From NCBI RefSeq assembly GCF_003018115.1, contig NZ_CP027457.1: DNA of 64,000 nt, one strand, 5' to 3'. Source of the DNA: Escherichia coli. GTDB taxonomy: Bacteria; Pseudomonadota; Gammaproteobacteria; Enterobacterales; Enterobacteriaceae. The position numbers are program-made. Shown here in pieces: positions 44,801-50,800 of this stretch; the stretch's first letter is position 1, and every line of letters begins with the position of its first letter.

Positions 44801-47800
44801 GCAAGGCGCTGCGCCTGAGATTCACTCAACGTGCCCAGCGTCATACACGCCTCCAGCCCCATCGCTTTTACCCCCTGCACCATTTGTTCCAGGTACGGCA
44901 TATCGCGTTCGTGGGGATTCTTCCACGCCGCGCCCATACAGAAACGCGTCGATCCTGCCGCTTTCGCTTTGCGCGCCGACTCCAGCACCTGTTCAACTTC
45001 CATCAACCTCTCGGCTTCCAGCCCGGTTTTGTAGCGCGAGCTTTGCGGGCAGTATTTGCAATCTTCCGGACAAGCTCCGGTCTTAATCGACAGCAACGTG
45101 CTGACCTGCACCTGACGAGGATCGAAATGCTGGCGATGCACCTGCTGCGCTTCAAACAGCAGATCCAGCAACGGTTTTTCAAATAATTCTGTGACTTGCG
45201 ACAATGTCCAGCGTGGGCGGTGAGCCATGGGGCTTCTCCAAAACGTGTTTTTTGTTGTTAATTCGGTGTAGACTTGTAAACCTAAATCTTTTCAATTTGG
45301 TTTACAAGTCGATTATGACAACGGACGATCTTGCCTTTGACCAACGCCATATCTGGCACCCATACACATCCATGACCTCCCCGTTACCGGTTTATCCGGT
45401 GGCAAGCGCCGAAGGTTGCGAGCTAATTTTGTCTGATGGCAGACGCCTGGTTGACGGTATGTCGTCCTGGTGGGCGGCGATCCACGGCTACAATCACCCG
45501 CAGCTTAATGCGGCGATGAAGACGCAAATTGATGCCATGTCGCATGTGATGTTTGGCGGTATCACTCATGCGCCAGCCATTGAGCTGTGCCGCAAACTGG
45601 TGGCGATGACGCCGCAACCGCTGGAATGCGTTTTTCTCGCGGACTCCGGCTCCGTAGCGGTGGAAGTGGCGATGAAAATGGCGTTGCAGTACTGGCAGGC
45701 CAAAGGCGAAGCGCGCCAGCGTTTTCTGACCTTCCGCAATGGTTATCATGGCGATACCTTTGGCGCGATGTCGGTGTGCGATCCGGACAACTCAATGCAC
45801 AGCCTGTGGAAAGGCTATCTGCCAGAAAACTTGTTTGCTCCCGCCCCGCAAAGCCGCATGGATGGTGAATGGGATGAGCGCGATATGGTGGGCTTTGCCC
45901 GCCTGATGGCGGCGCATCGTCATGAAATCGCGGCGGTGATCATTGAACCGATTGTCCAGGGCGCAGGCGGGATGCGCATGTACCATCCGGAATGGTTAAA
46001 ACGAATCCGCAAAATGTGCGATCGCGAAGGTATCTTGCTGATTGCCGACGAGATCGCCACCGGATTTGGTCGTACCGGCAAACTGTTTGCCTGTGAACAT
46101 GCAGAAATCGCGCCGGACATTTTGTGCCTCGGTAAAGCCTTAACCGGCGGCACAATGACCCTTTCCGCCACACTCACCACGCGCGAGGTTGCAGAAACCA
46201 TCAGTAACGGCGAAGCCGGCTGCTTTATGCACGGGCCAACTTTTATGGGCAATCCGCTGGCCTGTGCGGCTGCAAACGCCAGCCTGGCGATTCTCGAATC
46301 TGGCGACTGGCAGCAACAGGTGGCGGCTATTGAAGTACAGCTGCGCGAGCAACTTGCCCCCGCCCGTGATGCCGAAATGGTTGCCGATGTGCGCGTGCTG
46401 GGGGCAATCGGCGTAGTCGAAACAACTCGTCCGGTGAATATGGCGGCGCTGCAAAAATTCTTTGTCGAACAGGGTGTCTGGATCCGGCCTTTTGGCAAAC
46501 TGATTTACCTGATGCCGCCCTATATTATTCACCCGCAACAGTTGCAGCGTCTGACCGCAGCGGTTAATCGTGCGGTGCAGGATGAAACATTTTTTTGCCA
46601 ATAACGGGAAGTCAGCGTGTGGGTTTCTGGCTACACTTTCTGCAAACAAGAAAGGAGGGTTTATGAAACTCATCAGTAACGATCTGCGCGATGGCGATAA
46701 GTTGCCGCATCGTCATGTCTTTAACGGCATGGGTTACGATGGCGATAATATTTCACCGCATCTGGCGTGGGATGATGTTCCTGCGGGAACGAAAAGTTTT
46801 GTTGTCACCTGCTACGACCCGGATGCGCCAACCGGCTCCGGCTGGTGGCACTGGGTAGTTGTTAATTTACCCGCTGATACCCGCGTATTACCGCAAGGGT
46901 TTGGCTCTGGTCTGGTAGCAATGCCAGACGGCGTTTTGCAGACGCGTACCGATTTTGGTAAAACCGGATACGATGGCGCAGCGCCGCCGAAAGGCGAAAC
47001 CCATCGCTACATTTTTACCGTTCACGCGCTGGATGTAGAGCGTATTGATGTCGATGAAGGAGCCAGCGGCGCGATGGTCGGGTTTAACGTTCATTTCCAC
47101 TCTCTGGCAAGCGCATCGATTACCGCGATGTTTAGTTAATCACTCTGCCAGATGGCGCAATGCTATCTGGTATCACTTAAAGGTATTAAAAACAACTTTT
47201 TGTCTTTTTACCTTCCCGTTTCGCTCAAGTTAGTATAAAAAAGCTGAATGCGAAACAGCAAACCAAATAATATCAATACGTTACAATGCATTTAGTCTAA
47301 AAAATAGACTGCATAATGCTACAAAACACAACATATCCAGTCACTATGAATCAACTACTTAGATGGTATTAGTGACCTGTAACAGAGCATTAGCGCAAGG
47401 TGATTTTTTGTCTTCTTGCGCTAATTTTTTGTCAACACACTGGGTTAGCTAAATTTACAACCATGCTCAGTATCTCGATAAGCGCAGAGAAATGATGCAG
47501 TGGTGGGCAGACTGGTTTGATAGGAAGGTGTAACCTGAAAGTAGCACACAGCCTTTATTCCGTTTACCAGGCTTTGTGCTATAACTCTTGCATAACATCA
47601 TTATTAACATCAATTTCCATTCAAATTGATTTTATTTAATCTAAATTAACAAAATGTAATCCTCATTTAAACGCATATTTAAAATCATTATCTATTTCAC
47701 AAGCATATTTTTATTATTTCTTTTGAAAACAACATTGGTTAACAACCTTATTACAGGTTTTTCTAAGTAGTAACTAAATATCATTGACGTTATTAAAGCG

Positions 47801-50800
47801 AAGATAATCATTGCAGCATAAAGGATAATTGCTCCTGTATAGTCGGTTATTTTATAACCAATGCATCTTAAAAAGGTTGAAAGCACAATGAAAGAAATTG
47901 TATGAATCAAATATATAGAATACGAAGCATCCCCAAGCTTCATAAGTGCTTTGTGAACAAATGATTTTTCATTGAAAGAAATATTTATTGCGCCAAGAAC
48001 ACATAAGAGAGATGGCACCCCTACGTATATAATACGCTCATCACCAACACCCCATACATTAGTCCCAACAATTAAAAATAGACCTACAGCAAAACATAAA
48101 ACTGATAGTTTTATGTTTTGAAGAATCTTTTTCTGATAAACATAGCCGCATATCATACCGAATATGAATTCAAGATGTATCGGGCTGAAAAATAATCTTT
48201 GGATAAAGTTCAAGCTGCCCCAGTTATAAAACAAGAATGTATAAGTACAGAATAGGACGCCAGTGGCAACTCTTCCATATTTACCAAAAATACAGCACAT
48301 TAATGCTAGCGACATATAGAAGTAAACTTCAAAATTTAGTGTCCAACTTATTGCATAAATGGTTTCTGCCTTCCATGATTCAGATGGGTAAAACAAAAAC
48401 ATAGCGCTTGTTACAAACTTCCTGAAAGCATCATCAGGAATCTTGCCAGTTACCATTAAGGCTATAGCATAAAGCAAAAGAGACATCCAGAATGCTGGAG
48501 CTACGCGAATTAATCTTTTAATTATAAAATCACCAATACCACGATCGCTCCTCATGCACTTTCCGATAGTTATGTACATAACCATTCCAGAAATGACGAA
48601 AAATATATCAACTCCGTACTTACCGAACTGTACGAACCCCTGATCAGGGAGAATAAGTCGCGTAGATGGAACGAAGTGGTTTACTGCTACCTTGGCATGG
48701 ATGAACACTACCATCAAGGCCGCAATGCCTCGTAAATACTGAAGCCCAATAATCATGAGGTTCTCCTAAAATGACATCCATGTCATTTTAGCGACTAAAC
48801 CACGATGGTAAAGATAATCATAACAACTATTCAACAGAGTAGTTTTGTGTTTAGTAAGCAACAAACGTTCCTGGAGATCCAGTGGCAGTGCATCGCAACC
48901 TGAATGGTGCCGTGGTTGCATTCACCAATACAAAATCCTCCCCCTTTCGCCAATAACCACCAGTTGGTATACCCTGAATCCCATTTTGACTATAACCTAA
49001 GTTGTACGTAATTTCTCTTAGGTATGGACCAATGTTTGTTTGCCAAGTTCCTGTTTCCACCCATACATTACTGTGTCGGAGTGATCTCCCCTGAAATGAA
49101 GCATTTGGTTGAGGAGTTACACCATCAACCATTAGACCAATAAATTTCATGGATCGAAGATAGCTAGGAGCTGAAGGTGAAACAGGAAATTCAAATGGCA
49201 CAGTTATTGTCGTTGTCGATAGATAATTGTTTCTGTCCCAAAATTTTATATTGATATCACCAAGATTAAACCTGTTGACATTTCTTATGTCAGCAATTCT
49301 AGAATCCATTAAAGATGGATTGTAAACAAACAAAAGATCACAATCCCCAATTGTTAAATTGTTCAAGGCTCCTTTATCACACGATAGAAACCTTACTCCC
49401 TCTATTTCTCCTGTTATTCTTCCTATAGACACCTCTTCTGCTAGAGTATTGGCGGACCTAGCATTCATAACAGACTTTGGAGTGTTACCATCTGTACCAC
49501 GAAATATATGTAAATGCTCAATATTTATTCTTGAACAATCAGCATAACTAACCGCACCAAGCCCGGTTCCGCCAACTTCAGCATATAGTATTGTCATGTT
49601 TGCATCTGTTGCACCAGCGATAGCTTCTTCACTTCCATCATAGTGGAAATAATCTATATGTATGCGACCACCTCCGTATATGCCATTGTCTGCACAATTT
49701 TTTAGATACATTCTGTTTACTGTTACTTCGATATCCTGCGCTGAATTAAGTATAGAACAACAGTCTACGGCAGATATTGAATTAATAATGTTATTTTTCG
49801 ACCCGTCAAAAAAATGCAGCAGTTGAGGCATAGAAGCATTGCTGTTACCAGTATTTACACAATTGTATCCTCTTATGACCCCAACAACATTATTGGAACC
49901 CTTGAACTGTATTCCAATTACACCAGTACCTGAACCAGATGGCGCGTAAAGCCCAGTTATATACACTGATTTAAAGGTATTGTTACTACCAGATACCCTG
50001 ATAGGCATGCAAGCTGTTTCATTGGCATCAATATTTAGATTAAAATATCCTTTTTCTTTAGTTATATTTACAATATTTCCATAAGTTGGTGATGTTGTAA
50101 TTAACTTGCCGTCATTAATACAATTAATTGAACGGGCTACAGAGGTTGTTCCTGTAAGTTTAATTGTAATCCCGTCTATCAGCACAGGACACCCAGGATA
50201 AGACATTGCAGAGTTGAATAGTTCTGTTTGGTCAACATCGCAACTATCTACAAGGCCTAAAGATTGTGCCTTAACTTCAGTTTGATATACAATAGCCTTA
50301 AGTCCATTTTCTATATCATGAATATTTGAATTATCTTGTATGCCTGAGCTAGATATTATATATACACAACTGCCACCGTCACCTTTTGAAAAAAAACCCC
50401 TCGTCTCAACAATATCGCCTTCCTTTAAATTCATATCTGATTTCATATCAGATACGGTGTCATATTTTCGACCATAATGTGATGAAAGACCTCCAATAAT
50501 AGCATATCCATTGCTACTTGATAAATCTACCCTTAGCCGGTCAGGGTCATACTTCAGCACATTAGGAAAATAGAACTGCTGTGCACCATACGCATCATAA
50601 ACAGCCATAGAATGGCCTTGCACGGTAACGAATTTGGCAATCTGTCCGTTATATACAGGGTAACCAGCAGCGTTAATGATGATTGGTTGAGAAACAGGAA
50701 CGTGAGAACCGTCTTCATTCTCTACATAAACCTGAATCTGGTTTTCAGGATTTACAGGGTCAGTGTCAATTTTACCGATATAAATTTTGCCATTGGCAAC

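What the first reader, a model, noticed from the sequence alone, without database searches (positions are those of the whole stretch)
47692..48756. Phage-borne acyltransferase-3 membrane protein next to att: candidate serotype-conversion gene
A 354-aa polytopic membrane protein of the acyltransferase-3 family sits between the tailspike gene and attR, the position the O-antigen acetylase occupies in Shigella phage Sf6. It is AT-rich with its own RBS, and a 22-bp perfect palindrome (AAAATGACAT-CC-ATGTCATTTT, 48769..48790) lies immediately upstream. If it is expressed from the prophage it would modify the host O-antigen or another glycan and change phage susceptibility and antigenicity.
Basis: partly seen in the sequence, partly recalled or inferred. 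Interest (0 to 1): 0.55.

Follow-up and report, generated by a model that had tools for sequence, protein, structure and literature searches.

The report
Prophage surface-sugar acyltransferase beside tailspike
A P22-like prophage sitting at the lambda attachment site of an E. coli chromosome carries, right after its tailspike gene, an intact membrane acyltransferase that most likely acetylates the host's O-antigen so that the lysogen changes its surface and resists the same phage: a familiar trick, carried out here by an uncharacterised branch of the enzyme family.

Summary
The ORF at 47692..48756 (-) encodes a 354-aa protein that matches Pfam Acyl_transf_3 over its full length (E 3.7e-30). 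It has every motif of functional AT3 enzymes: R9-X10-H20, FFVISG, R81xxR84 and G200. The AlphaFold model is confident, and dN/dS against an 88% relative is 0.08. The gene lies between a P22-type tailspike gene and an exact lambda att core (47230..47244). The palindrome is real and longer than reported, at 26 bp.

All eight distinct contexts of relatives examined (38-98% identity; E. coli, Citrobacter, Enterobacter) place the gene directly downstream of, and co-directional with, a prophage tailspike or tail-fibre gene. The tailspike receptor-binding domain travels with it between unrelated phage backbones.

The only complete E. coli genome of 5,426 with this cassette is one of just five that carry the O20/O137 O-antigen cluster. 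A draft carrier is named O137:H41.

The best reading is an Oac-like lysogenic-conversion acyltransferase that acts on the tailspike's glycan receptor. It is homologous to Sf6 Oac only at family level (about 20% identity). Substrate, expression in the lysogen and phenotype are all inferred, not shown.

Verdict: a new member of a known kind, of moderate interest.

The parts
47692..48756 (-). AT3-only membrane acyltransferase gene (354 aa). Motifs R9-X10-H20, F52-F53-V-I-S-G57, R81-L-I-R84 and G200.
   Evidence: ORF; Pfam PF01757 at 3.7e-30; phrog_3333; residues invariant across 60 homologues including Sf6 Oac and Sf101 OacB; AF2 pLDDT 89.9; dN/dS 0.084 against the Citrobacter copy.
48763..48767 (-). 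Shine-Dalgarno AGGAG, 6 nt upstream of the ATG.
   Evidence: Read directly from the sequence.
48766..48791 (.). Perfect 12+2+12 palindrome CTAAAATGACAT-CC-ATGTCATTTTAG. It overlaps the -10-like hexamer and the first two bases of the SD. Candidate operator or 5' RNA hairpin.
   Evidence: unique in the window; folds as an 11-bp hairpin in RNA; identical in the Citrobacter copy and partly kept (TGACAnGGAnGTCA) in the 64-68% relatives.
48785..48812 (-). Sigma-70-like promoter candidate: -35 TTTACC, 16-nt spacer, -10 TAAAAT. The predicted start falls in the palindrome centre.
   Evidence: 9 of 12 consensus positions; the number of such sites in the region is not above chance. A -10-like TA[A/G]AAT is kept in 7 of the 8 upstream regions aligned; the 38% relative L092 does not align there.
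48851..50875 (-). P22-type tailspike (674 aa): a head-binding N-terminal domain plus an uncharacterised receptor-binding domain that co-travels with the AT3 gene.
   Evidence: Pfam Head_binding at 4.5e-67; PHROG tailspike families; RBD 90% identical in a Citrobacter prophage that has a different N-terminal anchor; almost no relatives in the phage database.
47476..47691 (-). 3' flank of the cassette, shared with copies integrated at other sites. Contains a 13-bp-stem hairpin (47542..47581), a weak terminator candidate.
   Evidence: 216 nt at 97.7-99.5% identity to the dacD-site prophages, after which homology ends; inverted repeat I3; fold.
47230..47244 (-). Lambda att core (O region) at the prophage/host junction, bio-proximal (attR).
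   Evidence: Exact 15-mer match; the flanking 47226..47530 is 87-93% identical to lambda/434 attP arms; ybhB, bioA and bioB lie on the host side.
47382..47432 (+). Lambda/434-type tI (sib) terminator hairpin of the integration module, separated from int in the prophage state.
   Evidence: Inverted repeat I1; it coincides with the terminator annotated in phage 434, 147 nt after the attP core.

Best explanation
The gene is a moron of a P22-like temperate phage. It encodes a stand-alone acyltransferase-3 inner-membrane enzyme. By analogy with Oac, OafA and OafB, it would take an acyl group (most probably acetyl, from cytoplasmic acetyl-CoA) through its transmembrane cavity, using H20/R9 and the R81xxR84 and FFVISG motifs, and put it on a sugar of a surface polysaccharide on the periplasmic side. 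The target is most probably the O-antigen that the phage's own tailspike recognises; the evidence points to the O-antigen made by the E. coli O20/O137-type gene cluster. Expressed from its own small promoter in the lysogen, it would change the O-antigen epitope and block tailspike binding or cleavage, giving superinfection exclusion and an altered serological type. Shown here: family membership, intact catalytic motifs, purifying selection, cassette structure, tailspike linkage and the association with O20/O137 carriers. Inferred: the acyl donor, the acceptor, expression in the lysogen and the phenotype.
For: The protein matches AT3 over its full length. R9, H20, F52, F53, G57, R81, R84 and G200 are invariant in a 60-sequence alignment that includes Sf6 Oac and Sf101 OacB. 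These correspond to the OafA residues H25, R14, R69 and R72 shown essential by mutagenesis, and to the family-invariant F41, G46 and G202 (PMC7448272). The AF2 model is confident, matches AT3 models at TM 0.8-0.92, and its best match among solved structures is HGSNAT. dN/dS is 0.084 at dS 0.9. In all eight distinct contexts of relatives examined (38-98% identity), the gene lies immediately downstream of and co-directional with a prophage tailspike or tail-fibre gene, and one of them adjoins gtrABC. The RBD (90%) and the AT3 (88%) are shared between an E. coli podovirus-type prophage and a Citrobacter amalonaticus prophage with tape-measure and GpJ-type tail genes and a different tailspike anchor. 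The same cassette sits in P22-like prophages at three or more integration sites. The only complete E. coli genome of 5,426 with the cassette is one of the five that carry O20/O137 wzx/wzy; its O-antigen cluster has no acetyltransferase gene; and another carrier is named O137:H41. The 5' non-coding block is better conserved than the coding sequence (97% against 83%, and 74-79% against 64-66%; in L006, 56% against 66%). Literature precedent exists for O-antigen modification genes behind Lederbergvirus and Uetakevirus RBPs, and for Oac and OafB blocking the cognate tailspike (PMC10408124; PMC9558356).
Against: There is no experimental data. Relationship to characterised O-antigen acetylases is at family level only (19-20% identity in the alignment; hhalign probability 94.5% to Oac and 98.7% to OacB). 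No NCBIfam equivalog matches. The closest non-phage relatives (about 30%) carry only automatic 'ExoZ' labels. The promoter call is a weak consensus match in a region with no excess of such matches, so the gene may be transcribed only with the late operon. The O-serogroup link rests on two labelled genomes, and the serotype of the window's own strain could not be checked. A nonsense allele (Q186*) is common among carriers, so the function is dispensable. The Citrobacter copies imply the target glycan is shared across genera, which would also fit a non-O-antigen glycan.
Confidence: 0.62

Rival explanations
1. The enzyme acylates a surface or periplasmic glycan other than the O-antigen, such as a group 1/4 capsule or K antigen, enterobacterial common antigen (as WecH does), colanic acid or osmoregulated periplasmic glucans (as OpgC does). 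The tailspike would then target that glycan, or the linkage would be merely positional.
For: AT3-only enzymes act on all these substrates (PMC9558356). The cassette is shared between E. coli and Citrobacter amalonaticus, which is easier to explain for a glycan common to both. The tailspike RBD has no characterised relative. The best PHROG for the tailspike is labelled 'colanic acid degradation', though the match is mostly to the N-terminal part. The nearest non-phage homologues carry exopolysaccharide (ExoZ) labels.
Against: P22-like tailspikes characterised so far, and prophage RBPs of this genus, track O-serogroup (PMC10408124). Carriers with a known type share the rare O20/O137 cluster. A relative adjoins gtrABC, an O-antigen system. 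No NCBIfam match to WecH or OpgC families.
Confidence: 0.2
2. The gene is expressed mainly as the last gene of the late operon during lytic growth, not in the lysogen. It would modify receptor on the dying cell and its debris so that progeny virions are not lost by re-adsorption. The palindrome would then be an RNA hairpin that tunes read-through or translation.
For: The gene is co-directional with the tailspike. The gap is only 94 nt here and 39 nt in several relatives. There is no canonical intrinsic terminator between the two genes. The hairpin pairs with part of the SD. The promoter evidence is weak.
Against: A -10-like hexamer is kept at a fixed distance from the RBS in 7 of the 8 upstream regions aligned, and the 5' block is better conserved than the coding DNA in most relatives, as expected for an autonomous moron promoter. 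Characterised phage O-antigen modification genes are lysogeny-expressed (PMC9558356).
Confidence: 0.12
3. The gene is passenger DNA without a current phenotype in this host: either a decaying moron, or an enzyme whose acceptor is absent here.
For: The Q186* allele occurs in the O20:H12 genome and in about ten other contigs. The low GC content suggests foreign origin. The gene is rare: 1 of 5,426 complete genomes and 3 IMG/VR contigs.
Against: In the window the ORF is intact with all catalytic motifs. dN/dS of 0.08 across E. coli and Citrobacter copies, and 0.07 within the Enterobacter subclade, shows long-term purifying selection.
Confidence: 0.06

Closest known systems
Oac of Shigella phage Sf6 (and OacB of Sf101, OacC, OacD): AT3-only O-antigen O-acetyltransferases of serotype-converting phages
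   Same: Stand-alone AT3 protein of 330-390 aa with the same motifs (R/K-X10-H, FFxISG, RxxR). It is carried by a P22-like temperate phage immediately after the tailspike gene, at the end of the genome next to the integration module.
   Different: Only 19-20% identical, with homology detectable by profile alone. It is transcribed in the same direction as the tailspike rather than convergently. There is no int gene between it and att, because the phage uses a lambda/434-type att/int layout. Acceptor sugar and O-antigen are unknown.
OafA / OafB (GtrC family II, BTP1) of Salmonella: AT3-SGNH O-antigen acetyltransferases
   Same: Same AT3 catalytic core, with the equivalents of H25, R14, R69 and R72. 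OafB is prophage-borne and protects against the phage's own tailspike.
   Different: There is no 11th helix and no periplasmic SGNH domain: the protein ends at residue 354 after the AT3 domain. There are no GATC sites in the 94-nt 5' region of the kind that drive gtr-type phase variation (sequence read).
PhiV10 (E. coli O157:H7 Uetakevirus) Oac homologue, and 'O-antigen modification gene behind the RBP' in Lederberg- and Uetakeviruses
   Same: An E. coli temperate podovirus with an acyltransferase placed directly behind the receptor-binding protein gene, acting as an immunity or serotype-conversion factor (PMC9558356; PMC10408124).
   Different: PhiV10 was not among the tblastn hits at E <= 1e-3, so this is a different AT3 lineage. 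The target serogroup also differs (O20/O137-type suggested, not O157).
ExoZ-type exopolysaccharide acetyltransferases (label on the ~30% homologues)
   Same: AT3-only architecture and similar length. These are the closest non-phage sequences and structures.
   Different: Identity is only about 30%. The labels are automatic. The gene here is not in an EPS cluster but in a prophage tail module.

Membership tests
Acyltransferase-3 (Pfam PF01757; TmAT superfamily) | Significant full-length match to the family profile | tested here: met
   E 3.7e-30, model positions 2-325 of 326; phrog_3333 at 2.5e-49.
Acyltransferase-3 (Pfam PF01757; TmAT superfamily) | About 10 transmembrane helices forming the AT3 fold | tested here: met
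   The AF2 model (pLDDT 89.9, pTM 0.90) is all-helical. It matches AFDB AT3 models at TM 0.8-0.92. The top solved structure is HGSNAT at probability 1.00. Hydropathy peaks agree. Topology was not determined experimentally.
Acyltransferase-3 (Pfam PF01757; TmAT superfamily) | R/K-X10-H motif in TMH1 (OafA R14/H25, essential) | tested here: met
   R9 and H20 are invariant in 60 sequences; motif definition from PMC7448272.
Acyltransferase-3 (Pfam PF01757; TmAT superfamily) | FFXISG motif in TMH2, RXXR motif at TMH3, and conserved Gly in TMH6 | tested here: met
   F52-F53-V-I-S-G57, R81-L-I-R84 and G200 are all invariant; definitions.
Phage serotype-converting O-antigen acetyltransferases (Oac class, functional) | AT3-only protein encoded by a temperate phage next to the tailspike/att region | tested here: met
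   compare Sf6 and Sf101.
Phage serotype-converting O-antigen acetyltransferases (Oac class, functional) | Orthology (close sequence relationship) to Oac, OacB, OacC or OacD | tested here: not met
   19-20% identity. tblastn gives Sf101 OacB at 24.6%, E 2e-5, and Sf6 is not listed. hhalign shows family-level similarity only.
Phage serotype-converting O-antigen acetyltransferases (Oac class, functional) | Adds O-acetyl to a defined O-antigen sugar and changes serotype | not testable with these tools
   Only indirect evidence: labelled carriers share the O20/O137 cluster, which lacks its own acetyltransferase gene.
Phage serotype-converting O-antigen acetyltransferases (Oac class, functional) | Expressed in the lysogen and blocks adsorption of the cognate phage | not testable with these tools
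   Only a promoter-like site and a conserved 5' block are available.
AT3-SGNH fused acetyltransferases (OafA, OafB, OatA) | Extra TMH plus a C-terminal periplasmic SGNH domain | tested here: not met
   The protein is 354 aa, the Pfam hit is AT3 only, and the model ends after the last AT3 helix.
ExoZ / WecH / OpgC (chromosomal AT3-only enzymes for EPS, ECA, OPG) | Match to a curated equivalog model, or location in the cognate biosynthetic cluster | tested here: not met
   No NCBIfam family at E <= 0.01; the gene lies in a prophage tail module.

The most novel reading that the evidence does not exclude
This prophage cassette may be a serogroup-level determinant in E. coli. Its acyltransferase would decorate the O-antigen made by the shared O20/O137 (Iguchi Gp1) gene cluster. 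Its presence, absence or Q186* inactivation would then explain part of the unresolved serological split, and the structure/gene-cluster mismatch, between O20 and O137. In parallel, the RBD+AT3 pair would be a mobile 'receptor-plus-antireceptor' cassette exchanged between podovirus- and siphovirus-type phages across genera.
Probability: 0.12. Interest if true: 0.6.

Novelty: new member of a known kind. Interest (0 to 1): 0.36.

Why it matters
Phage-borne O-antigen acylation changes serotype, vaccine epitopes and phage susceptibility. It is well worked out in Shigella and Salmonella but barely in E. coli. This gene represents an uncharacterised, tailspike-linked AT3 clade found in E. coli, Citrobacter and Enterobacter prophages. 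It gives a concrete, testable candidate for an O-antigen modification encoded outside the O20/O137 gene cluster, which in-silico serotyping would miss. It also illustrates that the receptor-binding domain and its matching 'anti-receptor' enzyme can move together as one cassette between unrelated phage backbones. That is relevant to predicting host range and choosing phages or tailspikes for typing and therapy.

Tried and rejected
- **NCBIfam:** no family at E <= 0.01.
- **PADLOC defence models:** nothing for the AT3, the Arc-like protein or the lipoprotein.
- **PDB by sequence:** only spurious VP7 hits.
- **BFVD fold search:** one AT3-like hit, uninformative.
- **GTDB species-representative genomes:** only relatives at <= 34% identity, so no help on substrate.
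- **Palindrome as a repeated operator:** no second copy in 64 kb, even with 3 mismatches.
- **Palindrome as a canonical intrinsic terminator:** rejected. It is AT-rich, the U-run lies inside the stem, and the terminator scan does not call it.
- **Compensatory changes supporting an RNA hairpin:** not seen. In the Enterobacter subclade the sequence is conserved but the symmetry degrades.
- **gtr-like Dam/OxyR phase variation:** there is no GATC in the 94-nt 5' region (sequence).
- **Published O137 O-unit structure:** I could not obtain it, so I could not check for unexplained O-acetyl groups. It is not in the held library and the review has no text supplements.
- **Serotype of the other carriers:** I tried looking up the Gp1 Wzy protein by sample, but the output collapses identical neighbourhoods, so samples could not be matched.
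- **Tailspike specificity from phage databases:** the RBD has only a 30% Vibrio phage relative.

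
Full report
**1. The observation**

The window holds an ATG-initiated ORF at 47692..48756 on the minus strand that encodes 354 aa.
- It matches Pfam Acyl_transf_3 (PF01757) end to end, at E 3.7e-30 over model positions 2-325 of 326. It also matches PHROG 3333, 'O-acetyltransferase', at 2.5e-49.
- Its GC content is 35.3% (GC3 34%). Neighbouring phage ejection genes are at 51% and the host genes ybhB and bioA at 52-56%.
- An AGGAG lies 6 nt before the ATG.
No second copy exists in the 64 kb, even allowing 3 mismatches.

**2. Context**

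The gene upstream on the same strand (48851..50875) is a P22-type tailspike.
- Its first 113 residues are the Head_binding domain (E 4.5e-67). The longest ORF starts at 50923, but the homology-supported start is MSDITANVV at 50875.
- Further upstream lie the standard P22-like genes: ejection proteins, needle, adaptor, coat, scaffold and portal. The window ends inside the prophage.

On the other side of the AT3 gene, an exact lambda att core (GCTTTTTTATACTAA) sits at 47230..47244.
- It is followed on the host side by ybhB, bioA, bioB and bioF.
- On the phage side, 47226..47530 is 87-93% identical to the attP arms of lambda and 434. This stretch includes the tI/sib terminator hairpin at 47382..47432.

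So this is a Lederbergvirus-type prophage with a lambda-type integration module, integrated at att-lambda. The AT3 gene is its last gene before the bio-proximal junction.

In Sf6 the arrangement is tailspike, then oac (convergent), then int, then attP.

**3. Is the protein a working enzyme?**

I aligned 60 homologues, including Sf6 Oac and Sf101 OacB. Invariant positions include R9, H20, F52, F53, G57, R81, R84 and G200.
- These map onto the R/K-X10-H motif of TMH1, the FFXISG motif of TMH2, the RXXR motif and the conserved TMH6 glycine.
- H25, R14, R69 and R72 of OafA are individually essential for O-antigen acetylation (PMC7448272).

The AlphaFold2 model is confident (pLDDT 89.9, pTM 0.90) and all-helical.
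- It superposes on AFDB AT3 models at TM 0.8-0.92.
- Its best solved-structure match is human HGSNAT (probability 1.00), as expected for the TmAT superfamily.
- There is no SGNH domain, so the protein is AT3-only, like Oac.

Against the 88%-identical Citrobacter copy, dS is 0.91 and dN is 0.076, giving dN/dS of 0.084. Within the Enterobacter subclade dN/dS is 0.074. The gene has therefore been kept functional over long periods.

**4. Relatives and their contexts**

The close family is small: 99% and 88% clusters, a 64-68% group and a 38% group (both Enterobacter hormaechei), and then about 30% homologues with automatic 'ExoZ' labels.
- The exact protein is already in NCBI as 'acyltransferase family protein [Escherichia coli]'. 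The 88% cluster is mostly Citrobacter amalonaticus.
- The family is rare. It occurs in 1 of 5,426 complete E. coli genomes and 3 contigs in IMG/VR. There is nothing above 34% identity in GTDB species representatives, and nothing above 30% in 50,697 phage records.

In every context I could read, the gene sits immediately downstream of, and co-directional with, a prophage tailspike or tail-fibre gene.
- The phage backbones differ: P22-like prophages, prophages with tape-measure and GpJ-type tail genes, and one where the gene precedes the lysis cassette.
- In L006 it adjoins a gtrA-gtrB-gtrC O-antigen glucosylation cassette at the prophage end.
- The window's tailspike receptor-binding domain (residues ~160-674) is 84-90% identical to the one in the C. 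amalonaticus prophage. There it is joined to a different N-terminal anchor, and the adjacent AT3 is 88% identical.
- The Enterobacter AT3 subclade goes mostly with a second, unrelated RBD family.
- The same tailspike+AT3 pair occurs in P22-like prophages at three or more chromosomal sites: att-lambda, dacD and one other. Homology extends 216 nt past the stop codon before the site-specific att arms begin.

The unit that moves is therefore RBD + 5' control block + AT3 + a short 3' flank.

**5. Which glycan?**

This is inferred, not shown.
- The single complete E. coli genome with the cassette (O20:H12; there the AT3 has a Q186* nonsense mutation) carries 'O20/O137 family' wzy and wzx, and has no acetyltransferase gene in its O-antigen cluster.
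- Only 5 of 5,426 complete genomes have that wzy/wzx. The chance that the one carrier is among them is about 0.001.
- An independent draft genome with an intact copy is named O137:H41.
- O20 and O137 share one O-antigen gene cluster, Gp1 (PMC4379981), although one study disputes this for O137 (PMC4732683). The published O20 structure does not fit that cluster (PMC7685785).

[quoted passage not shown] Oac and OafB block the cognate tailspike (PMC9558356).

Together this makes O-antigen O-acylation of an O20/O137-type O-unit the best-supported target. I could not check the serotype of the window's own strain, nor obtain the O137 structure.

**6. Regulation**

The 94-nt spacer between the tailspike stop and the AT3 start has one sigma-70-like site: TTTACC, 16 nt, TAAAAT, at 48812..48785. 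The region has no excess of such sites.
- The -10-like hexamer lies in the left arm of the palindrome, and the predicted start lies in its centre.
- As RNA, the palindrome forms an 11-bp hairpin that pairs with the first two SD bases.
- The last 60 nt of the spacer are 97% identical in the Citrobacter copy, against 83% for the coding DNA.
- A block GGTTTAG-C--TA[A/G]AATGACAnGGAnGTCA is 74-79% conserved in four of the five 64-68% relatives, against 64-66% for the coding DNA; in L006 it is 56%.
- In those relatives the symmetry degrades rather than being kept by compensatory changes.

I read this as a conserved moron promoter/operator region. Whether the palindrome binds a protein or acts as RNA is open. 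It is not a canonical terminator.

The rival reading is that the gene is simply the last late gene, acting on debris during lysis. That remains possible, since the gap is only 39 nt in several relatives.

**7. Comparison with known systems and verdict**

- *How it works:* it resembles Sf6 Oac, Sf101 OacB and PhiV10 Oac.
- *Membership:* it meets every tested criterion for AT3. It fails orthology to the named Oac proteins (19-25% identity; hhalign probability 94.5-98.7%). It lacks the SGNH domain of OafA/OafB.

It is therefore a new member of a known kind, namely a phage-borne AT3-only lysogenic-conversion enzyme from an uncharacterised, tailspike-linked clade. The finding is sound but follows a known pattern. 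Its added value lies in two things: the RBD+AT3 cassette moving between phage types and genera, and the specific, testable link to the O20/O137 O-antigen problem.

Noticed in passing
window 47226..47530 (att core 47230..47244; hairpin 47382..47432): The P22-like prophage uses a lambda/434-type integration module. It has an exact lambda core, P-arm homology and the tI/sib terminator hairpin, which in the prophage state is separated from int. This is the lambda retroregulation layout.
   Followed up: yes
window 50964..51263 (+) and 51298..51819 (+): Two plus-strand genes lie between the ejection-protein genes and the tailspike, the position of immI in P22. One is an Arc/Mnt-family protein of 99 aa. 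The other is a 173-aa predicted lipoprotein (signal MKKSLLIIPLLLVGC, phrog_6067, function unknown) that could be another lysogeny-expressed moron. Neither has a PADLOC hit.
   Followed up: partly
window 48851..50400 (tailspike residues ~160-674): The receptor-binding domain has essentially no relatives in 50,697 phage records: only a Vibrio phage at 29.6%. Pfam finds nothing beyond the head-binding domain. Yet it is 84-90% identical to the C-terminal part of a tail protein in Citrobacter amalonaticus prophages, where it is joined to a different anchor (Tail_spike_N).
   Followed up: partly
L001 (NZ_CP062855.1, E. coli O20:H12), AT3 codon 186: The copy in the only complete genome that carries the cassette has a nonsense mutation at the invariant Q186. 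The same split form (185 + 154 aa) is recorded on about ten other contigs, so an inactivated allele circulates alongside the intact one.
   Followed up: partly
L098 17808..26870 (O-antigen cluster of NZ_CP062855.1): The O20/O137-type O-antigen gene cluster contains wzx, wzy and seven annotated glycosyltransferase genes (including the pssD/pssE pair) but no acetyltransferase. Any O-acetylation of this O-antigen must therefore be encoded elsewhere. In that strain the prophage carrying the cassette lies between sbcB and dacD; its integrase end is about 17 kb, and the tailspike-AT3 end about 55 kb, from the cluster.
   Followed up: partly
L101 / L102 (metagenome scaffolds), 447 nt after the AT3 stop: Here the AT3 gene and its 3' flank are 100% identical to the window up to the att core. 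Beyond it lie different genes (137 aa, 417 aa and a primase-like 379 aa) instead of ybhB. This may be another element in tandem at att-lambda, or a different junction.
   Followed up: no
L006 9239..11989: In an Enterobacter-type prophage the 68% AT3 relative sits next to a complete gtrA-gtrB-gtrC cassette. That prophage therefore carries two different O-antigen modification systems side by side at its tailspike end.
   Followed up: no
window 50876..50923: The mechanical ORF for the tailspike starts 48 nt too early (MQSHHG...). Alignment with P22-type tailspikes and the 674-aa gene calls in other assemblies place the start at 50875.
   Followed up: yes
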